DNA of 64,000 nucleotides from Enterobacterales bacterium (GCA_041556195.1 JBFFIY010000002.1:278-64277), one strand, 5' to 3'; positions 50,173 through 63,554 are shown, counted from the stretch's first letter. Notes: generated by a model not told the origin, from the letters alone. A program made the numbers and translations.

Positions 50173-52065
50173 ATGAAAGATAACACTTTAGACGATCAAT
50201 CTTTTGATCTTATCATTATGTATTTTACCAATATCGCGACAAATACATCAGATCCGTTGACTTGTTGCAACAATGTTAAAGCAACATTTCCCCTTGTGAT
50301 GGAAGAGCTGTTTGGTCCTCCTCAAGGAGAATTATTGTCTTTTTGGCTTGGCGTGCAACTATGGAATATTTTTCCTCATCCTGATAATAATTTTCAACCC
50401 ATAAAGATTGAACTACCTAAACGTAACCAGAGTTGTTTGTGTGGTTCAGGTAAAAGATTTAAACAATGTTGTATCAATGTCCCAATGATTGATAGTTTTT
50501 CTTCAGAGATGTTCTGGCCCTATCTGGTTGATATGTTATCTCATAAAGACCTGGTTGAAGCTGCAAAGCAACGCCAACTACCAGTGGATGGATTGAGAAT
50601 AGTGGCGGAGATATACTTAAATAATGATGAACCAAAAAAAGCGATAGCTTTGCTAGAACCTTCTTTTGCTGATGAAGGTAAACATTTGAGCAAACAACAC
50701 AGCGGATTAACTGACTTACTCTGTGATGCATACAATGAACACTATCAGACCGACAAAAAGAAGGTCAAGCTTTTGGAGCAATTAAAGCATCACCCTGTAA
50801 AACGGATCCGCTGTGAAGCCTGGCAGCGGATAGCCAGTGTAAATGCTGAGAAAGGGAATCATAAGCAGGCTATAGAGGCACTATATGAAGCGATGAAAGC
50901 TGATCCAAAGGACTTGAGCAATGCGATCTTAGAAATTAAATTACTGGTTTCTTCCAACAATATCGAAATGGCTAAGCAACGAGCGAATTTTTGGTACACG
51001 AAAATAGTTAAATTCCCGGATGTTTTCAAAAAATTAGGTGACTTCCTGGAGACAGCCAAAACAGATCCTGTCGAGGCTCTTTCTCAAATGCAAATAGATC
51101 GATTTAATGATCCTCAACTCGAAGTTTTACAGCACTGGTTTGATACAAATCATCAATCGATCCCCTTGCCTGATTATCAATTGGATTCTATGGGAGTAGA
51201 TGAAGAATCCATAGAAAATTTTATTCTTAAATCACCCAAATCCTGTAGTAAAACCTTTGAGATGTGGCAAGATGATTTTTCTCCTTGTGATAAGCCATTT
51301 TCAACTCAATGGATAAATGAAGTAGATACCTGGTTTGATCCCTACGATACTGATTGGATTGAGTTCTTAGAAAAACATCCAGACTCTGTACATAATATCG
51401 ACTTACTCGATGATGTTATCAACTGTTTAATGGCACACCCGGGAAATGAATTGCCTGTTAGTCCTGCGAAACAGTTGGCAAAAAAAATCGCTGACCATGT
51501 ACTAAATATCCTTTTACCACTGTCAACAGAAATTTTAGAAAATTCAACTCAAAGATTCAGTTGGCTGATTCTTGATAATCGGCCAGCACTGAGAATTCTG
51601 GCAAACAGAATCCTGTTGACCGAAGACAATAGCCCTGAAGCCTTCACTTTGATAAATACTTATATCAAGCTCAATCCAACAGATAACCATGGTTTTAGAT
51701 CTCTGCTTATGAACCAGATGATCCGTCAACGTGAGTATAAACCAGCCAAAGAACTCGCATCCCAATACCCTGATGATTGTTTGGTCGACATGATGATGGG
51801 AAAAGCATTGGCTGATTTCGCCGAAGGAGACAAAGTAGCTGCAGGGGAAAACCTGAGATCTAGCCTGCAATATCACCCCTTTTTGATTCCGTATTTAACA
51901 AGAACTCGAGTGGCTAAACCAACATTTAGCGAATTCGGCATTGCCATGGGCGGCAAGGATGAAGCATGGATTTATCGAGAAGAAATGCGTGATGTCTGGT
52001 TACAGATGCCGGGAGCCTTAGAATGGTTAAAAGAACAACATAAATTAATTGACTATAAAAAATGA
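50173..52065 (+). CDS. SEC-C motif protein with TPR-like helical repeats (630 aa)
   Basis: CLCGSGKRFKQCC metal-binding SEC-C motif near residue 100. The rest is helical-repeat-like. No enzymatic motif recognised. Confidence 0.6.
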   Translation: MKDNTLDDQSFDLIIMYFTNIATNTSDPLTCCNNVKATFPLVMEELFGPPQGELLSFWLGVQLWNIFPHPDNNFQPIKIELPKRNQSCLCGSGKRFKQCCINVPMIDSFSSEMFWPYLVDMLSHKDLVEAAKQRQLPVDGLRIVAEIYLNNDEPKKAIALLEPSFADEGKHLSKQHSGLTDLLCDAYNEHYQTDKKKVKLLEQLKHHPVKRIRCEAWQRIASVNAEKGNHKQAIEALYEAMKADPKDLSNAILEIKLLVSSNNIEMAKQRANFWYTKIVKFPDVFKKLGDFLETAKTDPVEALSQMQIDRFNDPQLEVLQHWFDTNHQSIPLPDYQLDSMGVDEESIENFILKSPKSCSKTFEMWQDDFSPCDKPFSTQWINEVDTWFDPYDTDWIEFLEKHPDSVHNIDLLDDVINCLMAHPGNELPVSPAKQLAKKIADHVLNILLPLSTEILENSTQRFSWLILDNRPALRILANRILLTEDNSPEAFTLINTYIKLNPTDNHGFRSLLMNQMIRQREYKPAKELASQYPDDCLVDMMMGKALADFAEGDKVAAGENLRSSLQYHPFLIPYLTRTRVAKPTFSEFGIAMGGKDEAWIYREEMRDVWLQMPGALEWLKEQHKLIDYKK

Positions 52066-52573: not shown

Positions 52574-53686
52574 ATGACATGGCAACCAGATCAACCATAC
52601 AATGATTTACCACTCTTGCCTCCAAAGTTCGATTTGGATTCAGTTGCTATTTTAAAGGCTTGCATTCCAGCACGTGTCGCTTTGGCTGAGCTTAAAAAAA
52701 CCGGGGAATTGCTACCAAATCAAAGGGTATTAATAAATTTACTACCTTTGTTAGAAGCGAAAAACAGCTCTGAAGTCGAAAATATACTGATCACCACAGA
52801 TCAATTATTCCAATTTGCGCATGAAGACGGCCTTGCCGATGCAAAAACCAAAGAAGTACTTCGCTATAGATCGGCGTTGCACCGTGGATCTCAAGAACTA
52901 GCCAATAAACCGTTGTCTGGCAAAATCGTAATGGAAATATGCAGCACAATCAAAGGCATTCAGATGAATGTTCGCAAAATACCAAGAATCACTCTGGCAA
53001 ATCCCCTCACAGGTAAAGTGATCTATACACCACCATCAGGTGAAAATCACATCAGAGATCTTTTGGCTAATTGGCAAGCTTTTTTACATCAAGATGATGA
53101 AATTGATCCACTCGTTAAAATGGCAATCGCTCATTATCAATTTGAAGCCATCCACCCGTTTCTTGATGGTAACGGTCGAACGGCTCGAGTACTGAATATA
53201 TTGTACTTAACCGGATCGGGCTTATTGAGTTTACCCATTTTACAATTGAGTCGATTTATCCTTCAAAACAAACAGGATTATTATCATCTGCTTCATGAAG
53301 TAACAAAAAATGGAGACTGGCAAGGCTGGATCCTTTATATATTAAAAGCTGTGGAACAGACTGCAACCTGGACAACTCAAAAAATAACCGCCGTAAGGCA
53401 ACTTATTGAACATACCACAGAGTTCATTAAAACCAACTTACCCAAAATCTACAGCCATGAACTGGTTCAAGCCATTTTTGAACAACCCTGTTGTCGAATT
53501 ACTAACCTGGTTGAACAAAATATTGCCAAAAGACAAACTGCCTCTGTGTATTTAAAACAACTATGTGAGATCGGTGTTTTACAGGAAATAACCACTGGCA
53601 AAGAAAAACTTTTTATTCATTCAAAATTGATTCAATTGATAACTGAGGGTAAGCATGAGTTTGATTATTACTTAGCTAAACAATGA
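52574..53686 (+). CDS. Fic family protein (class II, N-terminal inhibitory helix)
   Basis: 370 aa. Active-site motif HPFLDGNGRTAR (HxFx[D/E]GNGRxxR), inhibitory-helix motif SSEVEN (SxxxEN), C-terminal wHTH-like region. Confidence 0.85.
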   Translation: MTWQPDQPYNDLPLLPPKFDLDSVAILKACIPARVALAELKKTGELLPNQRVLINLLPLLEAKNSSEVENILITTDQLFQFAHEDGLADAKTKEVLRYRSALHRGSQELANKPLSGKIVMEICSTIKGIQMNVRKIPRITLANPLTGKVIYTPPSGENHIRDLLANWQAFLHQDDEIDPLVKMAIAHYQFEAIHPFLDGNGRTARVLNILYLTGSGLLSLPILQLSRFILQNKQDYYHLLHEVTKNGDWQGWILYILKAVEQTATWTTQKITAVRQLIEHTTEFIKTNLPKIYSHELVQAIFEQPCCRITNLVEQNIAKRQTASVYLKQLCEIGVLQEITTGKEKLFIHSKLIQLITEGKHEFDYYLAKQ

Positions 53687-54070: not shown

Positions 54071-55570
54071 ATGGATATTTCCAAATATAAAGCTGGTACT
54101 TACAAACAGAGCTATCAATATAAGTATTTTCTACCCAGCAAGATAAACCATTCTTGGATATTTTCAGATCCCCAAGTCCAGCAACTGCTTAGTGAAGCCG
54201 ATAGAGCTTTAGGAGCGTTGGATGCTTTTTCCGAATATTTGCCCGATGTAGATTACTTTGTTCAAATGCACCTTAGTAAAGAAGCTACTCAATCTAGCCG
54301 TATAGAGGGGACTCGAACAAATATAGAAGAAGTATTTATTGATGCGCAGAATATTGAACCAGAGAAAAGGGACGATTGGGAGGAGGTGCAAAATTACCTG
54401 ATAGCCATTAATACCGCTATAAAACAGTTACATGTTTTACCCTTCTCCAATCGCCTTTTAAAAGATACTCACAGAACCTTGATGCGAGGTGTTCGAGGCG
54501 AACATAAGAGACCCGGAGAGTTTCGGCTTAGCCAAAACTGGATCGGCGTAAGCCTGAAAAATGCTATATTTGTTCCACCTCATCAAGATCACATCGAAGA
54601 GTTGATGAGTGATCTCGAAAAATTCATCAATAATGAATTGAATGTCCCACATTTAATAAAAATTGCAATTGCCCATTATCAATTTGAAACCATTCACCCA
54701 TTTCTAGATGGAAACGGTAGGCTGGGTAGATTGATGATAGTACTTTATTTAGCGAGCTTTAATCAATTACATAAACCCGCTCTTTATCTATCTGATTACT
54801 TTGAGAGAAACAAGGTGGAGTACGTTAACAGGATGATGGCTGTCCGCTTGGCGGATGACATGAAGTCATGGCTGATTTTCTTTCTACATGGGGTATTAGA
54901 GACTTCAAAAAATTCAATTCAGGTATTTAAGGATATTATTGCGCTTAAATCGAAGCTGGAGCGTGAAGTGTTACCCTATTTTAGTACACGAAGGCAGCAG
55001 AATGCTCAGAACATAATGCGTCATCTGTATCAAGCCCCTGTGGTGAGTATAAAGGAGATCGCTGATCTGCTAGGTATCAACCTCAATACAGCATCTGCTT
55101 TAATCAATGACTTTGAAAAATATGGTGTGCTTACTAAATTAACGGCAAAAAAACGTAGTCGTTTATATGGCTTTAGTGAATATATGATGATATTTAAAAG
55201 ACAATATGATATTAGAGAATATGAGGATGAAGTAAATACCCAGGAGGATACCCAGGAGGATACCCAGGAGGACACCCAGGAGGATACCCAGGAGGATATC
55301 ATTACCAACAGTTCTCATGACATTGACTGGAAGATAAAACAGCTAATATCAAAATTTGATGGTGTGCTTAGTCGAGCTGAAATTCAGACTCTACTTGATT
55401 TGAAAGATGCCGAATATGTTAGGCAGCAATATATTTTGCCTGCGCTTAAAATGGGGGTTATTGAAATGACTCTACCTGATAAACCCTCGAGTAAGTTGCA
55501 GAAATACAGATTAACAACCAGAGGTGAGAAGATGCAGCAATATATAAGGACAGCTTCTAATGAAAACTAG
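54071..55570 (+). CDS. Fic family protein (class II) with repeat linker and extra C-terminal winged-helix-like module
   Basis: 499 aa. HPFLDGNGRLGR active site, SSRIEG inhibitory motif, (TQED)x5 linker, C-terminal ..LPDKPSSKLQKYRLTTRG.. block. Its stop overlaps the next gene's start by 11 nt. Confidence 0.85.
   Translation: MDISKYKAGTYKQSYQYKYFLPSKINHSWIFSDPQVQQLLSEADRALGALDAFSEYLPDVDYFVQMHLSKEATQSSRIEGTRTNIEEVFIDAQNIEPEKRDDWEEVQNYLIAINTAIKQLHVLPFSNRLLKDTHRTLMRGVRGEHKRPGEFRLSQNWIGVSLKNAIFVPPHQDHIEELMSDLEKFINNELNVPHLIKIAIAHYQFETIHPFLDGNGRLGRLMIVLYLASFNQLHKPALYLSDYFERNKVEYVNRMMAVRLADDMKSWLIFFLHGVLETSKNSIQVFKDIIALKSKLEREVLPYFSTRRQQNAQNIMRHLYQAPVVSIKEIADLLGINLNTASALINDFEKYGVLTKLTAKKRSRLYGFSEYMMIFKRQYDIREYEDEVNTQEDTQEDTQEDTQEDTQEDIITNSSHDIDWKIKQLISKFDGVLSRAEIQTLLDLKDAEYVRQQYILPALKMGVIEMTLPDKPSSKLQKYRLTTRGEKMQQYIRTASNEN
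55238..55297 (+). repeat. 12-bp in-frame tandem repeat x5 (ACCCAGGAGGAT; one copy ends C)
   Basis: Read directly. Encodes TQEDTQEDTQEDTQEDTQED inside Fic gene 2. Confidence 0.95.
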
Positions 55571-57737
55571 TGGTGAATACAAGATTAGACCTGCTGGACG
55601 GCACATATTAACTATCGGTAGAGATCTGATACAAGACTCATATGCGGCAGTTGTAGAGATTGTGAAAAATTCATTTGATGCAGATGCAAGTGAAGTTCTA
55701 ATCGAATTCAATGGTTTTACTGATAAAAAAGAATATACAATTGTAATACAAGATACTGGACATGGTATGTCTCATGAGGTGGTAATTAACAAATGGATGG
55801 TACCTTCAACCGAGGACAAACTAAAACGTAAAACGAGTCCTAACGGACGAGTTATGCAAGGAAAAAAAGGGGTGGGCCGCTATGCTGCTTCTATTCTTGG
55901 CGAAGACTTACTACTGGAAACGGTTGAAGAGTGTGGCAAAAGAACAATTGCATATTTAGATTGGAAAGACTTTGAAAATGCAGATTATCTAGATGATGTA
56001 GAAATATTAATAGAAACTGAATCTATTAATAGTACTAGCGGCACTAGACTAACCATCATGGGGGGAGAAGAACGTTATATTGAATGGAATAAGAATCAAT
56101 TTAATAAACTTAGATTTGAATTAAAAAAATTAATGCCTCCATCTAACATTGCTGAAGATGAAGAGCCCCAAAATAGTGATTTCTCAATTAGGTTATCAGT
56201 TGTTGGATTTGAAGGGGTTGAACCAATTGATGAGGTTATAGAACCATACCCAATTGCTGATTTATTTGATTATAAAATATCAGGAAAATTAAACTCTAAA
56301 GGAAAAGGTAAGCTAAATTACAGCTCGCAAAAAACAAAAAGTACATCTGATGAATCAATAGAATTCGATGCCGAAATTATTGGGACTGGTTGTGGAGAAA
56401 TTGAGTTTAATATTATGGTGTATGATCGTGAAAAAGAAGCTATTGAGGCTCTTATTAAACGAGGTTTGAAAGATGAACACGGTAAATATTTGGGTAAACT
56501 TGAAGCTAAGCAGTTATTAAATGTGAACAACGGGGTTGGTGTATACCGTAATGGTTTTAGAATCAGGCCGCTTGGTGATCCTGATTTCGATTGGCTTAAA
56601 CTAAATGAACAAAGAATACAAAATCCATCTTTGAGAATTGGTAGTAATCAAGTAATTGGGTTCGTTCACATTCAGTCTGAAGAATCATCGAATTTAATTG
56701 AAAAAAGTGCTCGAGATGGGCTAAAAGAAAATGAATCGTTTGACGTCCTAAAAAAAGTCACTTCGAAAGTTATTCAAGAACTCGAAAATAGACGTTTTCA
56801 ATTTCGAAGAGCCCTATCATTGAGTAATCCGAAGGCAAAAATAGAGCGCGAATTAAAAAAAATATTTTCAGTTGATAATGTTAAAAATAACATATCAAGA
56901 AAACTTAGAAAGTCAGGTGTAAGGACTGATGTTTTATCAGAAGTTCTTCAAATAATAGAACGAGATGCTAATGAAAAAAATGCAGCAGCTGAAGATATTC
57001 GACAAACTGTGGCTATTTATCAAGGTCAAGCTACGCTTGGAAAAATCATAAACGTAATTCTTCATGAAGGACGTCGGCCTTTGAATTTCTTTAAGAATCA
57101 AGTCCCAAATATAGAATATTGGCATGAAGAATATGTAAAATCTCCAACTCCTGAAATATTAAGTAAGATTATTCCTATTGCATTAAATCTTGGAGATAAT
57201 GCGGATATTTTTGCTAGACTTTTTAGTCGCTTAGATCCTCTTGCTGCAGGAAAAAGAGGTGCAAAGGTATCTGTGCCTTTTTCAGAAGCGCTTCAAGGCG
57301 TATTTTCCGTCTTTGAAGAAGAGATGGTATCTCAAAATGTAAAGATAAATATTACCGGACCAGATGACTTTATGTTTATTGGCTGGGTACAAGACTTATA
57401 CGCAATATTTACTAATTTAATTGATAACAGTCTTTATTGGATGGAAGAAAAAAACATATCAAATAGAGAGATTAATATCGACTTTTCGATTGATGGTAAA
57501 CAAATTCAATATATTGACTATCGTGATACCGGTCCCGGAATATCTCCTAGCCTACTAATAGCAGATCTTATTTTTGAACCGGAATTTACTACGAAAAATG
57601 AAGGGACAGGCCTAGGGCTAGCTATAGCTGGTGAATCAGCCGCTAGAAATGGACTTGACTTGAAGGTGTTCGACTCAAAACTCGGTGCATATTTTAGAAT
57701 GCAACCCAAATTGGACGGAAGCAATGCAGACATTTAA
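55560..57737 (+). CDS. dual-GHKL protein: N-terminal MORC/Hsp90/MutL-like ATPase domain + C-terminal histidine kinase (H-box + HATPase_c)
   Basis: 725 aa. N-terminal Bergerat-fold motifs EIVKNSFDA (N-box), DTGHGM (G1), GKKGVGR (G2). Candidate phospho-His in VILHEGRRPLNFF (His502, codon 57063-57065). Second ATPase domain: NLIDNSLYW, DTGPGI, GTGLGLAIA. No TM segment seen. Confidence 0.8.
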   Translation: MKTSGEYKIRPAGRHILTIGRDLIQDSYAAVVEIVKNSFDADASEVLIEFNGFTDKKEYTIVIQDTGHGMSHEVVINKWMVPSTEDKLKRKTSPNGRVMQGKKGVGRYAASILGEDLLLETVEECGKRTIAYLDWKDFENADYLDDVEILIETESINSTSGTRLTIMGGEERYIEWNKNQFNKLRFELKKLMPPSNIAEDEEPQNSDFSIRLSVVGFEGVEPIDEVIEPYPIADLFDYKISGKLNSKGKGKLNYSSQKTKSTSDESIEFDAEIIGTGCGEIEFNIMVYDREKEAIEALIKRGLKDEHGKYLGKLEAKQLLNVNNGVGVYRNGFRIRPLGDPDFDWLKLNEQRIQNPSLRIGSNQVIGFVHIQSEESSNLIEKSARDGLKENESFDVLKKVTSKVIQELENRRFQFRRALSLSNPKAKIERELKKIFSVDNVKNNISRKLRKSGVRTDVLSEVLQIIERDANEKNAAAEDIRQTVAIYQGQATLGKIINVILHEGRRPLNFFKNQVPNIEYWHEEYVKSPTPEILSKIIPIALNLGDNADIFARLFSRLDPLAAGKRGAKVSVPFSEALQGVFSVFEEEMVSQNVKINITGPDDFMFIGWVQDLYAIFTNLIDNSLYWMEEKNISNREINIDFSIDGKQIQYIDYRDTGPGISPSLLIADLIFEPEFTTKNEGTGLGLAIAGESAARNGLDLKVFDSKLGAYFRMQPKLDGSNADI

Positions 57738-58809
57738 ACTACTCATGGTTGAAGATAATCAGAGCGACTTACAAACAAGTATAGATACGCTTGAACGATA
57801 TAAGAGTCAGAAAAACAGAAATATAGAAATGATCTCTTCCAAGAGCATTGAAGAAGCTTTTTCTCTACTCGACAATACATTTGATGGTGCAATTATCGAT
57901 ATGAAACTGTCTGATAAAGGAGGTGAAGGTAATCAGGTTATACGGAAAATAGCAGAATCTAATATTAGAATTCCAATTGTAGTGTTTACAGGTACGCCGT
58001 CAGTTGCTGATGCAGGTAATGCTTATATAGAAGTATGCAAAAAAGGAGAAAATACTTATGAGGAGATATTTGATCGTTTATGGGGTATACATTGTTCAGG
58101 TTTAACTAGAATTATGGGGGGAAGAGGAATTATTGAAAGCACCCTTAATCAAGTCTACAAAGAAAATATACTGTCTCAGAAGGACGCATGGGTAAACTAT
58201 GGTGTAGTTGATTCGGAAAAGACTGAAAAATCACTTTTAAGATATACACTAAATCACCTTCTAGAACTAATTGATGAGAATGAAAAATCCTACCCTGAAG
58301 AATATTTTATTAACCCACCTGTAAGGAAAGGATTGACAACAGGTAGTCTAGTACTAAATGTAAAAGATAATAAGTGGTTTGTTGTACTTAATCCCGCTTG
58401 TGATTTAGTGCTGCGTCCTGATGGTAAATTCAAAACGGATAAGCTTTTTCTAGTCGAAATTGAAAACGAAGAAAATGTAATCGCTACTGCTTTAGGGGAT
58501 AATAATAATAATCCAACTAGCAACAAAGCGATAAAATCCCATAATAAAAAATTATCTGATATCTTTAAAAACAACCACACTCCCTATAATCATTGGGTTC
58601 CTAAAACCACCTTTTTTTCTGGTGGATTTTTAAATTTTAGGTCTGTTTTGACTTGTGACACTGTCACATTTATAGAGAAATTTTCAGACCCCAAATCACA
58701 AATTTCACAACCATTTATCAAAGATGTAGTATCTAGATTCTCGTCCTATTATGCGCGTCAAGGTCAACCTGATATTGATTTTTACAGCCGATTAAAGTCA
58801 GCTGATTAA
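57724..58809 (+). CDS. response-regulator receiver domain protein with unassigned ~240-aa C-terminal domain
   Basis: ATG 57724 (MQTFKLLMVEDN..) overlaps the kinase stop by 14 nt. REC signatures: E10-D11, acceptor Asp59 (AIIDMKL), VVFTGT, CKKG. The C-terminal part (..VVLNPACDLVLRPDGKFKTDKLFLVEI.., ..SRFSSYYARQGQPDIDF) matches no family I can name and has no HTH. Confidence 0.75.
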   Translation: MQTFKLLMVEDNQSDLQTSIDTLERYKSQKNRNIEMISSKSIEEAFSLLDNTFDGAIIDMKLSDKGGEGNQVIRKIAESNIRIPIVVFTGTPSVADAGNAYIEVCKKGENTYEEIFDRLWGIHCSGLTRIMGGRGIIESTLNQVYKENILSQKDAWVNYGVVDSEKTEKSLLRYTLNHLLELIDENEKSYPEEYFINPPVRKGLTTGSLVLNVKDNKWFVVLNPACDLVLRPDGKFKTDKLFLVEIENEENVIATALGDNNNNPTSNKAIKSHNKKLSDIFKNNHTPYNHWVPKTTFFSGGFLNFRSVLTCDTVTFIEKFSDPKSQISQPFIKDVVSRFSSYYARQGQPDIDFYSRLKSAD

Positions 58810-58815
58810 TATGTA

Positions 58816-60387
58816 TTAAAGAATTGAATGTACGATTTTTGCAATTTTATTAGCCAAATATGGAGGGACAGCATTACCAACTTGTACATATTGCTGAGTT
58901 CGAGTGCCGACAAAAAAATAATTGTCAGAAAATGTTTGAATTCTAGCCGCTTCGCGTACAGTTAAACTACGACATTGTGAAGGATCTGGATGAATGAAAT
59001 AGTGTCCATCTTTTGAAATATGGCACGTAACAGTTGTGGCTGAAATGTTCCAAGGTTGAACTCTAAATCGATCAGCAAATTTACCTGACTTAAAATTTTT
59101 ATGATTAGGCATTAATTCATCTGGATAATCTGGTGATTTTGGTGTTAGTGAACTCCAATTGTTTTTTGCTCCAATTTGTGCCCAAACACTACAAAACAAA
59201 TATCTCTGTAAATCTGACGACATATGTCCTCTGGTATCGTGATTACAAACATGATTACCCAAATTCTTATCGTAATACCATTTCCGTAAATCGGCATTAT
59301 CGATTTTTTTGTTTCGTCTTAATCCAAAAATTTTCCCCTGACCTAAACTGGGGGTAGTAAGATTATCTATAATATTTTTTAGTTCGTTCGCTATATCCTT
59401 TTTTGAGTTTAGTTTCAAAGATTTTATAGTATTAATTGATTGTGTTTTTATTGTGTGAATCCAATTGGCATCAGTGTTTTCTTCTTTAGATAAACCGCTT
59501 CTTAATGCCGGCAAGTCTTTAATCACTTCAGAAAGTGTTATCTGTGTATCTTTTTTATCGAGAATTAATTTGTTATCCCATTTGTGTGCTAGATCCTCTC
59601 TAATACCAAGTAGAATAACTCGATGGCGGCGCTGTGGAATTCCATAGTGTTCGCATTTAACAATGAAATCCTGAGGTTTAACAAGTCCATCTTCAACAAT
59701 TGGAGTTGTCAGAGAGAATATTTTATACTGGTGTTTTGAGAAACCTCGCTTTGGATTAACATTTACTGCTTTGCAAGGATTATGCAGATCCTTGAAGATA
59801 GTTTCGTAAATAGACTTTCCATCTACTTTGGCCGATAGCATTCCTTTTACGTTTTCCATCACAAATGCCATTGGTTGGAACTGTGCGATTATTTTTAAAT
59901 ATTCTTTGTATAAGAAATTACGATGGTCTTCCTCTGCCTTATATTCGTCATTTGCTTTATTTTTTGACCTGCCCACAAGTGAATAAGCTTGGCACGGAGG
60001 CCCTCCAATAAGTATGCATTCATCCAAACCTAGAGCTTCTTTTATTCTTTTATTAATTGCTCTATTATCTTTCCCCAGTTCGAGGCATAAAGCTTCTCTA
60101 TCTGCAGCCTCAAGTTCTGCTGAAACTTCGGGTATTTTATAAAGCTCATCTTCAGGGCTTTTCCCTAACTCTCCTTTTAAAAAGTTGTAATAGGCCTCAG
60201 GAACGTCATTAGCAAATTGCCGATAAAACGAACGAAGCTTTAAAGTCCTATGGGCACTTTGTTCTTTTTCAATTGAAATAGCAATCTTGAAAGGATGTTT
60301 GTCTTCATCATCCTTATATGTGGAGAAGCCTTCACCAAGCCCTCCTGGGCCGGAAAAAATGTCAATTATTTTGACTGGTTTGCTCAT
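58816..60387 (-). CDS. dcm: DNA (cytosine-5)-methyltransferase
   Basis: 523 aa. Motif I DIFSGPGGLGEGF, motif IV GGPPCQAYS, motif VI MENVKGM, QRRHRV, motif X GNAVPP. Long variable region. Confidence 0.92.
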   Translation of the reverse strand: MSKPVKIIDIFSGPGGLGEGFSTYKDDEDKHPFKIAISIEKEQSAHRTLKLRSFYRQFANDVPEAYYNFLKGELGKSPEDELYKIPEVSAELEAADREALCLELGKDNRAINKRIKEALGLDECILIGGPPCQAYSLVGRSKNKANDEYKAEEDHRNFLYKEYLKIIAQFQPMAFVMENVKGMLSAKVDGKSIYETIFKDLHNPCKAVNVNPKRGFSKHQYKIFSLTTPIVEDGLVKPQDFIVKCEHYGIPQRRHRVILLGIREDLAHKWDNKLILDKKDTQITLSEVIKDLPALRSGLSKEENTDANWIHTIKTQSINTIKSLKLNSKKDIANELKNIIDNLTTPSLGQGKIFGLRRNKKIDNADLRKWYYDKNLGNHVCNHDTRGHMSSDLQRYLFCSVWAQIGAKNNWSSLTPKSPDYPDELMPNHKNFKSGKFADRFRVQPWNISATTVTCHISKDGHYFIHPDPSQCRSLTVREAARIQTFSDNYFFVGTRTQQYVQVGNAVPPYLANKIAKIVHSIL

Positions 60388-60453: not shown

Positions 60454-60900
60454 ATGGATATAGTTAATAAAAAACATCGTTCTCGTATGATGGCTAATAT
60501 TCGTTCTAAGGATACAAAACCTGAGGTACTTGTTAGAAAAGCTATACACAAAGCAGGTTACAGGTATAGGTTGAACACAAAAATTGGGCGAATAAGACCA
60601 GATATCGTCTTAACCAAACTGAAAGTAGCAATATTTGTACACGGTTGTTACTGGCATCGTCACGCCGAATGTAAGCTATGTTACATGCCAAAAACCAGAA
60701 TTGAGTTCTGGAATAAAAAATTTACTGAAAATATGGAAAGAGATAAAAGAGTAGAATTGACACTTAAATCGCAAGGATGGAGAGTTGCCGTATTCTGGGA
60801 ATGTGCTACGAGAAATGAAGAACGCCTTAAAACGGAAATTAACAACCTTGTAAGTTGGCTGGAATCAAAAGAACAGAGTTTTGAAACCGCCCTGATTTAA
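60454..60900 (+). CDS. vsr: very short patch repair endonuclease
   Basis: 148 aa. Blocks SRMMANIRSKDTKPE, YRYRLN, PDIVL, AIFVHGCYWHRH. Divergent from dcm. Confidence 0.9.
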   Translation: MDIVNKKHRSRMMANIRSKDTKPEVLVRKAIHKAGYRYRLNTKIGRIRPDIVLTKLKVAIFVHGCYWHRHAECKLCYMPKTRIEFWNKKFTENMERDKRVELTLKSQGWRVAVFWECATRNEERLKTEINNLVSWLESKEQSFETALI

Positions 60901-61052: not shown

Positions 61053-61802
61053 TTGTTATTTCAAGATCCGAATGATGAACCTGCATTGGTTTTGTTGAAA
61101 AAAATAGCGAAAGAAAAAGAAAGGTTGATTGCGGAGAAGAAGATAAAGAAACAGAAGGCGTTACCTGAGATTAGGGAGGATGAGAAGCCGTTTGAGTTGT
61201 CGGAGGGATGGGAGTGGTGTCGAATAGGAAACGCAGCGATTTCAACGGATTATGGATTGTCAGATAAATCGACAGTAGGAGATAAGGGAGTTCCTGTCCT
61301 TGCAATGGGACATATACAAGGAGGTGAAATACTTCTGGGAAATCAAAAGGTTGTTCCTGAGTCGGTTGAATCACTCCCTGAGCTATACCTTAAAAATAGA
61401 GATTTACTTTATAACAGAACAAATAGTGCAGAATTAGTTGGTAAAACTGGTATATACCGCGGTGATGACCAAGAGTATACATTTGCTTCTTACTTAATAA
61501 GAATTAGAACAGATAAAGAGTCATTGCTTCCTGAATTTATAAATCTAAATATGTTGGCACCTGAGTTTAGGGTTACGCAGATTAATCCACACCTGAAACA
61601 ACAATGTGGACAAGCGAATGTAAATGGAACGATAATGAAGCATATGATAGTTGCTATTGCTCCTGAATTTGAGATAGCGCGTATAGTTTCTAAAATTGAT
61701 GAACTAATGGCATTGTGTGACCAACTAAAAGCGCAACTCAGTGATGCCCAAACCACTCAACGCCATCTTGCTGACGCGATTGTTGAACAAGCTGTTAGTT
61801 AA
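61053..61802 (+). pseudogene. hsdS: type I restriction-modification specificity subunit (HsdS) remnant: central conserved region + second target-recognition domain
   Basis: Begins inside the HsdS central coiled-coil (FQDPNDEPALVLLKKIAKEKERLIAEKKIKK), then a TRD and the C-terminal conserved helix (KIDELMALCDQLKAQL). In-frame stops lie upstream. No hsdM or hsdR gene was identified in the window. Confidence 0.7.
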
Positions 61803-61850: not shown

Positions 61851-62438
61851 ATGGATAGAATCACAGAATTTCATAATATTATGCCAATATCGAATATGAC
61901 TTCGGTGATGCAACATGGCCTGTTATCCCATGCTCGAGCCTCACAACTTAACCATGCTGATATCTCATTGGCCGAAATCCAAGATCGCCGTGATACAAAG
62001 TCTATTCCTCAAGGTAGGAAGTTACATGAATACGCCAATGTGTATTTCCATGCCCGAAATCCCATGATGTCCAAACGTAGAGATGAAGCTCAGAACCTTT
62101 GTGTTCTAAGGGTTTCCAACGAAATACTGAATATCCCTAATGTAGTAGTAACCGATCAAAATGCGGCTAGTGACTATGCTCGCTTTTTAGCTCCTGATCA
62201 AATGAACCGATTTACATTAGATCTGGATCTGATCTATGCTAGTGACTGGAGACACAATGATAAGATCTCCTATTGGAGGCATAAATCCAGGAAGTGTGCT
62301 GAGGTACTGGTTCCTGATATGATCCCAGTTGAGTATATTTTTGGTGTCTATGTGGTGAACCCACAGTCCGCAGCATTACTGCATCAAGTAGGTTGTCACT
62401 TACCTGCTGAAATTAATTCTGATTTGTTTTTTGGGTAA
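61851..62438 (+). CDS. darT: DarT ssDNA thymidine ADP-ribosyltransferase toxin (DUF4433)
   Basis: 195 aa. N-terminal FHNIMPISNMTSVMQHGLLS block, central NVYFHARNPM, C-terminal KCAEVLVPD (catalytic Glu context). Followed 6 nt later by a macrodomain gene. Confidence 0.8.
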   Translation: MDRITEFHNIMPISNMTSVMQHGLLSHARASQLNHADISLAEIQDRRDTKSIPQGRKLHEYANVYFHARNPMMSKRRDEAQNLCVLRVSNEILNIPNVVVTDQNAASDYARFLAPDQMNRFTLDLDLIYASDWRHNDKISYWRHKSRKCAEVLVPDMIPVEYIFGVYVVNPQSAALLHQVGCHLPAEINSDLFFG

Positions 62439-62444
62439 ACGATT

Positions 62445-63554
62445 ATGATGAAAGTGCTAATAGGTAATATGTTTGAGACGTCTATGCAGACATTGGTGAA
62501 CACCGTGAACTGTGTCGGTGTGATGGGTAAAGGAGTCGCAAAAACCTTTAAAGATCAATACCCTACAATGTTTGAAGATTATAAGCAACGCTGCGATCAC
62601 AAACAGGTGAAGCCTGGAGTTCCTTATTATTACCATGATATGTTAGGAGTCTCTGTTTTAAACTTCCCAACCAAAGATCATTGGCGCTCAGCCTCTAAAC
62701 TTGCAGATGTGATTAATGGTTTAGATATATTCGTTCAGAACTACAAGAAATGGGGAATTACATCAATTGCATTCCCTCCATTAGGTTGTGGAAATGGTGG
62801 ACTTGAATGGGAGTTAGTTGGTCCATTAATGTATCAACGCTTAAAACCTTTGGATATTGATATTGAAATATACGCACCTTTCGGAACATCAAAGACACAG
62901 CTAAAAAAAGAGTTTTTTGAGAAAACTGTTGAAGTTGATTTCTCAGAAAAAGGTAAAAAATCCAAAGCTTTTAATCCCGAATGGCTGGCTTTAATCGAAG
63001 TGGTAAAACAATTAGGCTTACAGCCATATACCAGTCCAATAGGAAGAACTATCTTTCAGAAAATTTGTTATATCATGACAGAACTTGGTACAGAAACAGG
63101 ATTTAAATTTAAACAAGGCAGTTATGGACCTTTTTCTGACAATATCAAAGACGCTTTGAACTATTTTTCAAATAGTAATCTCATTCAGGAAGAGCAACTG
63201 GGGAAAATGACAGCATTAAAAGTTGATGTTGCATATGATAGTTATTTAGTTAAATATTCGACAGTAATTGAGAAACGCTATAAATCAATTGTTAAAACAG
63301 TTGATCTCTTTAGTCGAATCAAAAGCACCGATCAAGCAGAAGAAGTCACTACCGTTCTTTTTGCTTCTAGAAGAGTTAAAGAAAAAAATGGAACTGCAAC
63401 TGAGCAAGAACTTTTTGATTATATTTTGGATTGGAAAAAATCCTGGAACAAACAAGACAAGAAAGAATCTGTATCATCGACAATTAGAAATCTTGAAATG
63501 CTTGATTGGCTTAAGCTAAATTCTAGTGATAGTTTTTCTCAGCAAATTAATTAA
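62445..63554 (+). CDS. darG: DarG antitoxin (N-terminal macrodomain + C-terminal DarT-binding domain)
   Basis: 369 aa. Macrodomain blocks LVNTVNCVGVMGKGVA, NFPTKDHWR, IAFPPLGCGNGGL. About 200 aa of C-terminal domain. Confidence 0.8.
   Translation: MMKVLIGNMFETSMQTLVNTVNCVGVMGKGVAKTFKDQYPTMFEDYKQRCDHKQVKPGVPYYYHDMLGVSVLNFPTKDHWRSASKLADVINGLDIFVQNYKKWGITSIAFPPLGCGNGGLEWELVGPLMYQRLKPLDIDIEIYAPFGTSKTQLKKEFFEKTVEVDFSEKGKKSKAFNPEWLALIEVVKQLGLQPYTSPIGRTIFQKICYIMTELGTETGFKFKQGSYGPFSDNIKDALNYFSNSNLIQEEQLGKMTALKVDVAYDSYLVKYSTVIEKRYKSIVKTVDLFSRIKSTDQAEEVTTVLFASRRVKEKNGTATEQELFDYILDWKKSWNKQDKKESVSSTIRNLEMLDWLKLNSSDSFSQQIN

What the first reader, a model, noticed from the sequence alone, without database searches (positions are those of the whole stretch)
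57724..58809. Receiver domain fused to an unassigned ~240-aa output domain (possible effector)
Seen in sequence: a canonical REC (acidic pair, Asp59, Thr in VVFTGT, Lys in CKKG) is followed by a domain without a DNA-binding helix-turn-helix or any GGDEF, EAL, HD or nuclease motif I can recognise. Notable blocks are LNPACDLVLRPDGKFKTDKLFLVEI and RFSSYYARQGQPDIDF, plus a low-complexity N-rich insert (GDNNNNPTSN). Inference: in a defence context, REC-controlled output domains are usually the toxic effector.
Basis: partly seen in the sequence, partly recalled or inferred. Interest (0 to 1): 0.7.

Follow-up and report, generated by a model that had tools for sequence, protein, structure and literature searches.

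The report
Receiver domain fused to toxin-like fold
This gene encodes a phosphorylation-switched protein whose unannotated output half is predicted to fold like the MazF/PemK RNA-cutting toxins, and it sits with its own sensor kinase beside a DNA methylase, so it is probably the effector arm of a widespread, untested defence module.

Summary
Window 57724-58809 (+) encodes a 361-aa protein with an intact receiver (E10/D11, D59, T89, K107). Its ~240-aa C-terminal domain matches nothing in Pfam, NCBIfam, PADLOC or PDB sequences.

The protein is the second gene of a conserved pair. The upstream gene (55560-57737) overlaps it by 14 nt. It encodes a soluble kinase: paraMORC-type GHKL ATPase, H-box (His502) and HATPase_c.

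In 92 related loci the kinase was adjacent in 91. A C5 DNA methylase lay nearby in 72 and Vsr in 46. No other nuclease recurs, though this was not screened systematically.

An AlphaFold model of the C-terminal domain (pLDDT 85) shows a helical hairpin followed by a beta-barrel. All 50 best PDB fold matches are MazF/Kid/PemK toxins. Profile comparison gives no sequence support, and the MazF catalytic Arg/Thr are not kept. The family has its own invariant residues: C226-D227, K333-D334 and R345-Q346-G347.

Best reading (~0.45): a phospho-activated toxin-fold effector in a methylation-linked two-component defence module.

Main rival (~0.3): a non-toxic regulatory or adaptor domain, as proposed for related modules.

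The module class was described by computation in 2021, and a related system (Ambrosia) was validated in 2025. I found no prior description of this output-domain fold. I rate it a new variant of a known kind.

The parts
55560..57737 (+). Cognate soluble sensor kinase, 725 aa. N-terminal paraMORC-type GHKL ATPase (HATPase_c_3), a conserved middle region, a DHp H-box ILHEGRRPL with His502, and a C-terminal HATPase_c.
   Evidence: Pfam HATPase_c_3 5.5e-20 (residues 29-142) and HATPase_c 3.8e-16 (612-718). NCBIfam gives partial matches to AtoS/ZraS-type kinases and to the N-terminus of BbrUII/HgiDII restriction enzymes. PDB histidine-kinase hits cover residues 467-714. The H-box position was verified. 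Family conservation over 100 sequences is. The kinase is adjacent to the response regulator in 91 of 92 loci.
57724..58809 (+). The finding itself: a 361-aa response regulator (REC plus unassigned output domain) and its stop codon. It overlaps the kinase gene by 14 nt.
57724..58083 (+). Receiver (REC) domain, residues 1-120, with E10/D11, phospho-acceptor D59, T89 and K107.
   Evidence: Pfam Response_reg E 5e-4, below the gathering score.
58084..58320 (+). Linker and helical hairpin, residues 121-199. It contains the conserved motifs TGLTRIMGGRGxIE, W156, TEKALLRxTLNHL and PEE (E193 invariant).
   Evidence: AlphaFold helices at residues 136-162 and 164-185 in full-length numbering. The first 13 residues of the C-terminal-domain model have pLDDT below 50.
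58321..58806 (+). Barrel with MazF/PemK-like topology, residues 200-361. The order of elements is b1, b2, b3, helical insert, b4, b5, helix, b6, C-terminal helix, then a conserved tail.
   Evidence: The AlphaFold model has block pLDDT of 86-97 over most of the barrel. The Foldseek PDB top 50 are all MazF/Kid/PemK, with TM on target 0.56-0.73. The BFVD top hits are PemK/MazF.
58393..58407 (+). PACDL motif (P224, C226 and D227 invariant), directly after barrel strand b2.
   Evidence: The same A-C-D motif is invariant in the ~450-aa sister family.
58468..58566 (+). Variable helical insert between b3 and b4. It includes the lineage-specific N-rich stretch GDNNNNPTSN (58495-58524).
   Evidence: These alignment columns are full of indels and unconserved. 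Translation was checked.
58720..58782 (+). C-terminal helix and tail with K333-D334 and RFSSYYARQGQPDIDF (F339, Y343, R345, Q346, G347 and P349 invariant).
   Evidence: A Y-x-A-R-P-G tail is conserved in the sister family.
58816..60387 (-). C5 cytosine DNA methyltransferase, 523 aa. It is convergent with the response regulator, with 6 nt between the stop codons.
   Evidence: Pfam DNA_methylase 4.2e-45. PADLOC MTase_II/DrmMII-type models hit. A C5 methylase lies within 6.5 kb in 72 of 92 related loci. The same convergent layout occurs on Campylobacter plasmids.
60454..60900 (+). Vsr very-short-patch-repair endonuclease, 148 aa.
   Evidence: Pfam Vsr 2.4e-26. PADLOC Vsr. Vsr is present in 46 of 92 related loci, usually directly downstream of the response regulator.

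Best explanation
The protein is the output half of a two-gene sensor-effector module.

Proposed chain of events:
1. The upstream soluble kinase uses its paraMORC-type GHKL ATPase as an intracellular sensor. The likely signal is DNA, plausibly DNA lacking the methylation written by the linked C5 methylase, or some other infection cue. This step is inferred.
2. The kinase autophosphorylates on His502 and transfers the phosphoryl group to Asp59 of this protein. The motifs are shown; the chemistry is inferred.
3. Receiver phosphorylation changes the oligomeric or packing state of the C-terminal domain. This could be dimerisation, or release of the helical hairpin from the barrel. This step is inferred.
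4. The switch turns on a barrel with the MazF/PemK toxin fold. The barrel then acts on nucleic acid, most likely RNA, and stops phage or plasmid propagation or host growth. This step is inferred.

The chemistry is not that of classical MazF. The conserved residues here are C226-D227, K333-D334 and R345-Q346-G347, with E193.

The methylase marks self DNA. Vsr repairs the T:G mismatches that 5-methylcytosine deamination creates.
For: - Intact receiver: phospho-acceptor and all accessory residues are present, and the REC fold is predicted.
- Intact partner kinase: H, N, G1, F and G2 boxes and both ATPase domains are present, and the genes overlap by 14 nt.
- Conserved pairing: kinase and response regulator are adjacent in 91 of 92 unique loci. 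A C5 methylase is nearby in 72 and upstream on the same strand in 69. Vsr is present in 46 (examples).
- Fixed architecture: 614 cluster representatives carry the C-terminal domain, nearly always as REC plus this domain in proteins of 350-380 aa.
- Fold: the C-terminal domain model has pLDDT 85.2 and pTM 0.78. All 50 listed PDB matches are MazF/Kid/PemK-family toxins, with E 1e-3 to 8e-2, probability 0.97-1.0 and TM on target 0.56-0.73. The independent viral library also puts PemK/MazF first.
- No other effector seen: the locus screen covered only the kinase, C5 methylase and Vsr. I saw no recognisable nuclease motif among the kinase's conserved residues.
- Standalone module: some loci have the pair with no nearby C5 methylase, inside other defence islands (TIR proteins, AAA_21, type I R-M). 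This fits a module that can work on its own.
- Precedents: Detocs passes a signal from a kinase to a REC-effector and needs both the His and the Asp (10.1101/2023.01.24.525353). GHKL/paraMORC3 fused to a nuclease (VcSduA) is a validated defence (PMC12137116).
- Setting: a defence island with SoFic x2 and DarTG.
Against: - No sequence or profile similarity to MazF/PemK. Pfam gives no hit in 40 members. hhalign finds only an 11-column local match at 2% probability.
- By hand threading, the MazF catalytic Arg (start of b2) and Thr (end of b3) are not conserved.
- Foldseek E-values are modest and rmsd is 3.4-7.4 A. The fold assignment rests on one predicted model.
- There is no antitoxin and no toxicity data for this family.
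- In Ambrosia, a methylase plus HATPase kinase plus REC system, the authors propose that the response regulator controls expression of a separate HNH nuclease. The 2021 description proposes a regulatory role.
- What the kinase senses is unknown.
- About one fifth of loci lack a nearby C5 methylase, so methylation sensing may not be general.
Confidence: 0.45

Rival explanations
1. Regulatory or adaptor output. The C-terminal domain is non-catalytic. After phosphorylation it would bind DNA or a partner protein (the methylase, Vsr, the kinase or a host factor). It would tune expression or activity of the linked restriction-modification functions, as proposed for RM-linked two-component-like modules and for Ambrosia.
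For: - The 2021 description of RM-linked kinase-like and regulator-like pairs proposes signalling that controls R-M systems (PMC8011034).
- In Ambrosia, D60 of the REC protein is required for defence and reporter expression in the cluster rises on infection. The authors propose that the response regulator controls expression of the RM-like genes, with a separate HNH as the nuclease.
- Classical MazF catalytic residues are absent, and there is no sequence similarity to any enzyme family.
- The most conserved element is a C-terminal tail (YYARQGQPD). This could be a protein-interaction motif, as in CcdB-type proteins (own knowledge).
Against: - No HTH or other DNA-binding domain is detected or predicted. 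The region between REC and the barrel is a two-helix hairpin.
- The conserved cassette would then have no effector among the genes screened. Vsr is missing in half of the loci and the methylase in a fifth.
- All structural neighbours of the barrel are toxins.
- Invariant Cys-Asp, Lys-Asp and Arg-Gln residues across 26%-identity relatives look more like an active site than a scaffold.
Confidence: 0.3
2. DNA-directed restriction subunit. The C-terminal domain is a new DNA-binding or DNA-cleaving module. It would work with the paraMORC ATPase of the kinase as the R component of a classical methylation-sensitive restriction system. Phosphotransfer would serve as a licensing step.
For: - Gene order is methylase, kinase, response regulator, Vsr in most loci. 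A convergent M/R layout occurs here and on Campylobacter plasmids.
- The kinase N-terminus resembles the ATPase of BbrUII/HgiDII-family type II restriction enzymes (NCBIfam E 5e-13) and PADLOC REase_II models.
- paraMORC ATPases typically partner nucleases in R-M systems (PMC2292703).
- Three of 40 family members gave weak Pfam hits to RE_XamI and four to YaeQ.
Against: - The predicted fold is not PD-(D/E)XK, HNH, GIY-YIG or PLD.
- The candidate D227...E245-x-E247 motif lacks a Lys. E245 and E247 are not conserved in Dehalococcoidia, Campylobacter and other members.
- The weak RE_XamI and YaeQ hits are at chance level for 40 searches.
- As far as I know, CcdB is the only non-RNase member of the MazF fold (a gyrase poison), and no DNase with this fold is known.
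Confidence: 0.17
3. Not a functional feature: a decayed or mis-called ORF whose C-terminal half carries no function.
For: Occasional damaged copies exist. The L076 gene has an in-frame stop. P0175 is a deletion fusion of the methylase to the C-terminal domain.
Against: Full-length conservation across more than ten phyla, with invariant motifs at 26% identity. There are 1259 homologues and a fixed architecture.
Confidence: 0.01

Closest known systems
RM-linked two-component-like module of Bellieny-Rabelo et al. 2021 (HEF_HK PF19191 plus Response_reg_2 PF19192; PMC8011034)
   Same: - A soluble kinase-like protein with HATPase_c_3, a DHp histidine and HATPase_c, directly followed by a receiver-containing protein with no other known domain.
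- C5 methylase upstream and Vsr downstream.
- Wide, patchy distribution across phyla.
- A ~450-aa partner family from Burkholderia, Rhizobium, Sphingomonas and Acinetobacter is probably that published family. One member carries the UniRef name 'Response receiver domain-containing protein'. It shares collinear motifs with this protein: the DD pair, the phospho-Asp, A-C-D, W-x-x-P, R-F, and Y-x-A-R-x-G.
   Different: - Neither Pfam model hit any of the roughly 30 distinct kinase and partner proteins scanned here, counting the 40-member alignment once.
- This family's receiver is closer to canonical Response_reg, and it lacks about 90 aa found between REC and the output domain in the sister family.
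- Profile-profile support for homology is weak (P 0.014).
- The paper did not analyse the C-terminal domain and proposed a regulatory role.
Ambrosia defence system (AbrR/A/B/C/D; bioRxiv 10.1101/2025.09.30.679545)
   Same: A methyltransferase, a HATPase-type sensor kinase and a REC protein in one cluster. Defence needs the phospho-acceptor Asp (D60 there, D59 here). It behaves as an unconventional RM-like system.
   Different: Ambrosia has five genes: an XRE regulator, an N6-adenine methylase and a type IV HNH nuclease as well as the kinase and REC protein. Its REC protein is reported to carry a wHTH. Here there is no XRE and no HNH, the methylase is C5 with Vsr, and the output domain is a helical hairpin plus a MazF-like barrel. 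Homology to AbrB and AbrC could not be tested because no sequences were available.
Detocs (DtcA/DtcB/DtcC; bioRxiv 10.1101/2023.01.24.525353)
   Same: The working principle: a sensor kinase phosphorylates a REC-effector fusion that replaces the usual DNA-binding output. Effector domains are swappable, and both the His and the Asp are required.
   Different: Detocs has a TPR-containing kinase, a third REC-only buffer protein and usually a PNP ATP-nucleosidase effector, with no methylase link. There was no Detocs model among the PADLOC matches, though I did not check whether that release includes Detocs.
MazF/Kid/PemK type II toxins (Pfam PF02452; for example PDB 5hk0, 5co7, 1m1f)
   Same: The predicted barrel topology is b1-b2-b3-b4-b5-helix-b6-helix, with TM on target 0.56-0.73. 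The only local profile match (FVVLNPA to PAVVLSP) falls on the structurally equivalent strand b2.
   Different: There is no detectable sequence homology and no antitoxin gene. A roughly 35-aa helical insert sits between b3 and b4, and an N-terminal helical hairpin and a REC domain are fused. The catalytic Arg and Thr are not conserved. Different invariant residues are present (C226-D227, K333-D334, R345-Q346-G347).
paraMORC-associated restriction and defence proteins (paraMORC1-5, PMC2292703; VcSduA/Shedu with a GHKL N-domain, PMC12137116; BbrUII/HgiDII-family enzymes, NCBIfam NF050001)
   Same: An N-terminal MORC-like GHKL ATPase acts as the sensing or driving module of an R-M or defence system and is linked to C5 methylases and Vsr.
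   Different: In those proteins the ATPase is fused to, or directly paired with, a nuclease (PD-(D/E)XK, HNH or TIR). Here it is fused to a histidine-kinase core, and the signal passes by phosphotransfer to a separate protein.

Membership tests
Response regulator receiver (CheY-like REC, Pfam PF00072) | Acidic pair after beta1, phospho-acceptor Asp after beta3, Thr/Ser after beta4, Lys after beta5 | tested here: met
   E10/D11, D59, T89 and K107 were verified by translation. D11, D59, T89 and K107 are invariant in 40 homologues. D11 and D59 are invariant in the divergent set.
Response regulator receiver (CheY-like REC, Pfam PF00072) | (beta-alpha)5 fold | tested here: met
   The AlphaFold model shows alternating strands and helices over residues 4-125. 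Foldseek matches solved REC domains with E 1e-4 to 2e-3.
Response regulator receiver (CheY-like REC, Pfam PF00072) | Score above the Pfam gathering threshold | tested here: not met
   20.6 bits against a threshold of 30.2. In alignment A1, 34 of 40 members hit the model, with a best E-value of 1.1e-5. This is a divergent but recognisable REC.
Response regulator receiver (CheY-like REC, Pfam PF00072) | Cognate histidine kinase with an H-box encoded alongside | tested here: met
   The upstream gene overlaps by 14 nt. The H-box is LHEGRRPL with His502, followed by HATPase_c. The kinase is adjacent in 91 of 92 loci.
MazF/Kid/PemK toxin superfamily | SH3-like barrel with C-terminal helix (CcdB/MazF fold) | tested here: met
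   This rests on a predicted structure only. The model has pLDDT 85. All 50 listed PDB matches are MazF/Kid/PemK, with TM on target 0.56-0.73. The BFVD top hits are PemK/MazF.
MazF/Kid/PemK toxin superfamily | Sequence or profile similarity to PF02452 | tested here: not met
   No PemK_toxin hit was found in 40 members at E up to 10. hhalign against a 111-sequence MazF alignment gave 1.5-2% probability over 11 columns. That MazF profile was shallow (Neff 2.6), so sensitivity was limited.
MazF/Kid/PemK toxin superfamily | Catalytic Arg at the start of b2 and Thr/Ser at the end of b3 (E. coli R29 and T52) | tested here: inconclusive
   By hand threading on secondary-structure elements, the equivalent positions (about K217 and E247/N248) are variable in the family. 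No coordinate-level superposition was available.
MazF/Kid/PemK toxin superfamily | Adjacent cognate antitoxin gene (MazE/PemI/Kis) | tested here: not met
   The flanking genes are the kinase and the convergent methylase. There is no small antitoxin ORF, and none appeared in the related loci whose gene lists I read.
MazF/Kid/PemK toxin superfamily | Sequence-specific endoribonuclease activity and toxicity | not testable with these tools
   This needs expression and cleavage assays.
RM-linked TCS-like module (PF19191 HEF_HK + PF19192 Response_reg_2; PMC8011034) | Kinase-like protein with HATPase_c_3 + DHp His + HATPase_c, next to a REC-like protein that has no other known domain | tested here: met
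RM-linked TCS-like module (PF19191 HEF_HK + PF19192 Response_reg_2; PMC8011034) | Neighbourhood enriched in C5 methylase and Vsr | tested here: met
   In the window, Dcm is at 58816-60387 and Vsr at 60454-60900. Of 92 loci, 72 have a C5 methylase and 46 have Vsr.
RM-linked TCS-like module (PF19191 HEF_HK + PF19192 Response_reg_2; PMC8011034) | Match to the Pfam models PF19192 and PF19191 | tested here: inconclusive
   No hit was found for this protein, its kinase or any relative. That includes the Burkholderia and Rhizobium proteins that probably are PF19192 members. I had no positive control to show that the models are usable in the library at hand.
RM-linked TCS-like module (PF19191 HEF_HK + PF19192 Response_reg_2; PMC8011034) | Homology of the whole response-regulator-like protein to the ~450-aa family | tested here: inconclusive
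   hhalign gave P 0.014 and probability 3%. The relaxed alignment is collinear over 314 columns and aligns the DD pair, phospho-Asp, ACD, WxxP, RF and YxARxG motifs.
Ambrosia | Five-gene set: XRE regulator, N6-adenine methylase, HATPase kinase, REC-wHTH protein, type IV HNH nuclease | tested here: not met
   There is no XRE gene, no HNH gene and no N6 methylase in the cassette. The output domain is not a wHTH.
Detocs | DtcA kinase, DtcB REC-only buffer, DtcC REC-PNP (or swapped effector) | tested here: not met
   There was no Detocs model among the PADLOC matches, and I did not check whether that release includes Detocs. There is no third REC-only gene and no PNP domain.
PD-(D/E)XK nucleases (considered because of 'PACD...VEIE') | An alpha-beta-beta-beta-alpha-beta core with a D...(D/E)xK catalytic motif | tested here: not met
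   E245 and E247 are not conserved and no Lys follows. The predicted fold is a barrel, not the restriction-endonuclease fold.

The most novel reading that the evidence does not exclude
This could be a restriction-like immune system with no DNase.

A MORC-type ATPase clamp would read the methylation state of DNA, with self marked by the linked C5 methylase. It would convert that reading into a His-to-Asp phosphorelay. The relay would unlock a MazF-fold nuclease whose own N-terminal helical hairpin acts as a built-in antitoxin. Epigenetic self/non-self discrimination would then be coupled to an abortive-infection RNase.

The same output domain, marked by the ACD and ARxG signatures, would be the hidden common effector of all RM-linked two-component-like modules, including the published Response_reg_2 family.
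Probability: 0.2. Interest if true: 0.85.

Novelty: new variant of a known kind. Interest (0 to 1): 0.62.

Why it matters
The module is common and unstudied.
- At least 614 protein clusters at 50% identity carry the domain.
- 187 loci were found by a single motif scan of species-representative genomes.
- Members occur on Campylobacter conjugative plasmids and in Haemophilus, Neisseria, Yersinia, Poribacteria, Chloroflexota and one archaeal genome.

If the output domain is a phospho-switched toxin, three things follow.
- The set of two-component immune systems would extend beyond Detocs.
- There would be an explanation for why thousands of 'orphan' Dcm-Vsr pairs travel with a kinase and a response regulator.
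- MORC-type ATPases, whose bacterial roles are poorly understood, would be tied to phosphorelay signalling.

The finding also points to concrete, cheap experiments on a handful of invariant residues.

If the domain is instead regulatory, it would be a new non-HTH output domain controlling restriction-modification.

Tried and rejected
- **PD-(D/E)XK reading of 'PACD...VEIE'.** Rejected. The acidic residues of VEIE are not conserved, no Lys follows, and the predicted fold is different. Weak Pfam hits to RE_XamI (3 of 40 members) and YaeQ (4 of 40) are at chance level.
- **Cys-His-Asp triad (C226, H290 or H178, D227).** Rejected. Both His residues are lost in divergent members and in the sister family.
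- **Phosphatase-like C-X-R loop (C226...R231).** Rejected. The spacing is C-X4-R, and R231 is not conserved.
- **Sequence-level link to MazF.** hhalign against 111 MazF sequences was not significant.
- **Pfam PF19192 and PF19191 membership.** No hits anywhere, and no positive control.
- **P0175 as a meaningful methylase-effector fusion.** The junction lies inside REC beta5/alpha5. It therefore looks like a deletion that removed the kinase and most of REC.
- **Short proteins starting at 'MGGRG' as stand-alone effector domains.** They start at the internal Met of RIMGGRG, so they are most likely truncated gene calls.
- **Searches that found nothing.** There were no phage homologues and no E. coli DNA-level match. 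The exact-sequence contig look-up failed, and the 2021 paper's supplementary tables were not held.
- **Promoter and terminator scan.** Nothing above the shuffled background.
- **PADLOC PDC-M60B hit.** It covers only the REC region (E 1.7e-5) and is uninformative.
- **A nuclease hidden in the kinase.** No recognisable nuclease motif appeared in a 100-sequence conservation profile.

Full report
**1. The observation**

The ORF at 57724-58809 (+) exists as described.

The ATG at 57724 is the right start. It yields MQTFKLLMVED, matching the N-terminus MxxF[KR]LLxVED shared by 40 aligned homologues. The database copy of this protein (P0001, 354 aa) starts seven codons later and would cut into receiver strand beta1.

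E10/D11, D59, T89 and K107 were checked by translation. D11, D59, T89 and K107 are invariant in the family.

Pfam's Response_reg model scores 20.6 bits, below its gathering score of 30.2. The full-length AlphaFold model (pLDDT 73) still matches solved receiver domains.

The remaining ~240 residues have no hit in Pfam, NCBIfam or PADLOC, or among PDB sequences by single-sequence or profile search.

The N-rich stretch lies in a variable insert and is lineage-specific.

**2. The gene is half of a conserved pair**

The gene upstream (55560-57737) overlaps by 14 nt and encodes a 725-aa soluble protein. It has these parts:
- an N-terminal MORC-like GHKL ATPase (HATPase_c_3, 5.5e-20), with its N-box and glycine-rich ATP-binding motifs present in the sequence;
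- a strongly conserved middle region;
- an H-box, ILHEGRRPL, with His502;
- a C-terminal HATPase_c (3.8e-16).

Its N-terminus also resembles the ATPase part of BbrUII/HgiDII-family restriction enzymes (NCBIfam E 5e-13) and PADLOC REase_II models.

Directly downstream, convergent and only 6 nt away, is a C5 cytosine methylase (58816-60387). Vsr follows at 60454-60900.

The first ~50 kb of the window that I scanned (genes from about 34 kb onward) holds housekeeping genes. From about 50.1 kb the window is a lower-GC defence island. It carries two SoFic genes, this cassette, a truncated HsdS and DarT/DarG.

**3. Relatives**

- The full protein has 1259 homologues at E<=1e-3.
- The C-terminal domain alone finds 614 representatives of 50%-identity clusters. 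In nearly all of them it occupies residues ~120-350 of a 350-380-aa protein, so the architecture is fixed as REC plus this domain.
- Two scans of species-representative genomes gave loci from many lineages. These include Poribacteria, Latescibacterota, Chloroflexota, Desulfobacterota, Chlorobiaceae, Bacteroidota, Spirochaetes, Firmicutes, Yersinia, Haemophilus, Neisseria, Rodentibacter and one Methanoperedenaceae archaeon.
- Plasmid copies occur in Enterobacter, Bacillus and many Campylobacter conjugative plasmids. The Campylobacter layout (kinase, response regulator, convergent dcm) is the same as in the window.
- No phage record carries it.

Among 92 unique loci with enough flanking DNA:

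| Feature | Loci |
|---|---|
| Kinase adjacent to the response regulator | 91 |
| C5 methylase within 6.5 kb | 72 |
| C5 methylase upstream on the same strand | 69 |
| Vsr present | 46 |

The commonest order is methylase, kinase, response regulator, Vsr.

About 20 loci have no nearby C5 methylase and sit next to other defence genes. Examples are TIR proteins with an AAA_21 ATPase and HsdR, or HsdS with HsdR. The kinase-regulator pair is therefore the core. No other nuclease gene recurred, though the locus screen covered only kinase, methylase and Vsr. I saw no recognisable nuclease motif in a 100-sequence conservation profile of the kinase.

**4. The C-terminal domain**

Modelled alone with 119 sequences, the domain gave pLDDT 85.2 and pTM 0.78. 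It consists of:
- a two-helix hairpin (full-length residues 136-162 and 164-185);
- a barrel with the order b1 (208-212), b2 (217-221), a short helix carrying C226-D227, and b3 (240-247);
- a variable helical insert (249-281, holding the N-rich stretch);
- b4 (289-292), b5 (301-312), a helix, b6, and a C-terminal helix (329-344) followed by the conserved tail.

Foldseek against the PDB returned only MazF/Kid/PemK-family toxins among the 50 listed matches. E-values ran from 1e-3 to 8e-2, probability from 0.97 to 1.0, and TM normalised to the target from 0.56 to 0.73. The independent viral library also put PemK/MazF proteins first.

Sequence methods do not confirm this. No PemK_toxin hit appeared in 40 members. 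hhalign against 111 MazF sequences found only an 11-column match (FVVLNPA to PAVVLSP, probability 2%), although it falls on the structurally equivalent strand b2. By hand threading, the MazF catalytic Arg and Thr positions are variable here.

The residues that survive down to 26% identity are E193, G207, P224, C226, D227, P293, K333, D334, F339, Y343, R345, Q346, G347 and P349. Several alternatives were considered and rejected: a PD-(D/E)XK nuclease, a Cys-His-Asp triad and a phosphatase-like loop. In each case the required partner residues are not conserved.

**5. Literature**

- Bellieny-Rabelo et al. 2021 (PMC8011034) described, by computation, kinase-like (HATPase_c_3 + HEF_HK + HATPase_c) and regulator-like (Response_reg_2) gene pairs. 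They are linked to C5 methylases and Vsr and related to paraMORC ATPases. The authors noted that the regulator-like proteins contain no other known domain and proposed a regulatory role.
- Neither Pfam model hit any protein I tested. I had no positive control for those models.
- A ~450-aa partner family occurs next to the same kind of kinase plus Vsr and Dcm in Burkholderia, Rhizobium, Sphingomonas and Acinetobacter. It is probably that published family, since one member carries the UniRef name 'Response receiver domain-containing protein'.
- That family's invariant motifs are collinear with those of this protein: the DD pair, phospho-Asp, A-C-D, W-x-x-P, R-F and Y-x-A-R-P-G. Profile-profile statistics are weak (P 0.014, probability 3%). 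I consider the two families probably homologous, but this is not shown.
- Ambrosia is a 2025 preprint system with an XRE regulator, an N6 methylase, a HATPase kinase, a REC-wHTH protein and an HNH nuclease. It protects Pseudomonas and needs the receiver Asp. Its authors propose that the two-component part controls expression of the RM-like genes.
- Detocs shows that a kinase can drive a REC-effector fusion in defence.
- GHKL/paraMORC3-nuclease fusions (VcSduA) are validated defence proteins.
- paraMORCs were linked to R-M systems in 2008.
- My literature searches found no description of a REC-MazF-fold protein.

**6. Interpretation**

The best-supported reading is a phospho-switched effector.
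- *Shown:* an intact receiver, an intact cognate kinase, a tight and widespread gene pairing, linkage to C5 methylation and Vsr, and a confident predicted barrel whose only structural neighbours are toxins.
- *Inferred:* what the kinase senses, that phosphorylation activates the domain, and that the target is RNA.

I put this at about 0.45. A non-toxic regulatory or adaptor role is at about 0.3. That view is favoured by the published work on related modules and by the lack of MazF catalytic residues. A DNA-directed restriction subunit is at about 0.17.

**7. Novelty and verdict**

The kind of system is known, both as an RM-linked two-component-like module and as a two-component defence with a REC-effector. 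I found no prior description of this output domain or its toxin-like fold, and the family is large and untested. I rate it a new variant of a known kind, with interest 0.62.

Noticed in passing
window 54071-55570 (+), tandem repeat at 55236-55298: The second SoFic-type Fic gene (Fic_N, Fic, wHTH, Fic-like_C) contains a 12-nt unit repeated 5.2 times, encoding TQED repeats. Its stop overlaps the start of the sensor kinase by 11 nt, so it may be co-transcribed with the kinase-regulator pair. In most related loci that position is held by the C5 methylase.
   Followed up: partly
window 52574-53686 (+) and 54071-55570 (+): Two paralogous SoFic-like genes lie in tandem (PADLOC SoFic, E about 1e-114 each). 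A SEC-C/TPR protein sits at 50173-52065 at the island's left edge.
   Followed up: no
window 61053-61802 (+): A 249-aa type I specificity-subunit fragment matches only the C-terminal half of S-subunit profiles. No HsdM or HsdR lies within the part of the window examined (50-64 kb), so it is probably a remnant.
   Followed up: no
window 61851-62438 and 62445-63554 (+): A complete DarT/DarG toxin-antitoxin pair (Pfam DarT 1.7e-38; PADLOC DarG 8.5e-91) lies just downstream of the cassette.
   Followed up: no
window ~50.1 kb to the end: GC content is roughly 0.36-0.43 in the rest of the window and 0.34-0.39 in the island. No tRNA gene was found in the window, so the integration site is not defined here.
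   Followed up: partly
window 57724 versus 57745: The public copy of this protein (P0001, 354 aa) starts 7 codons downstream of the family-consensus start. The annotated start is probably too short and hides the 14-nt overlap with the kinase gene.
   Followed up: yes
P0175 (571 aa, metagenomic); L076 7361-8035: Damaged copies exist. P0175 joins the N-terminal half of a C5 methylase to REC beta5/alpha5 plus the output domain, consistent with a deletion of the kinase and most of REC. The L076 gene has an in-frame stop.
   Followed up: partly
L141 4737-10183 (Burkholderia glumae plasmid); L140 4518-11326 (Rhizobium plasmid): A sister system has a paraMORC-type ATPase/kinase plus a ~450-aa REC-like partner, followed by vsr and dcm. 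In Rhizobium an annotated type II restriction enzyme follows as well. The Burkholderia partner is annotated as 397 aa, but its homologues are ~452 aa.
   Followed up: partly
L137 4962-11160 (Bacillus cereus plasmid); L138 4998-9774 (Pseudanabaena plasmid): Distant full-length relatives of the kinase are followed by different unannotated partners. One is a 630-aa protein followed by an N6/N4 methylase. The other is a 226-aa protein followed by an IS-interrupted MBL-fold gene. This hints at swapping of the output protein.
   Followed up: no
L019/L094 and L142 (same Chlorobiaceae MAG, W9_Combined_metabat2_105): One genome carries both the ~360-aa family studied here and the ~450-aa sister family.
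   Followed up: no
L011 1437-12495: In a Poribacteria genome the kinase-regulator pair has no nearby C5 methylase. It is flanked by two TIR-domain proteins, an AAA_21 (AbiEii-like) ATPase and a type I HsdR.
   Followed up: partly
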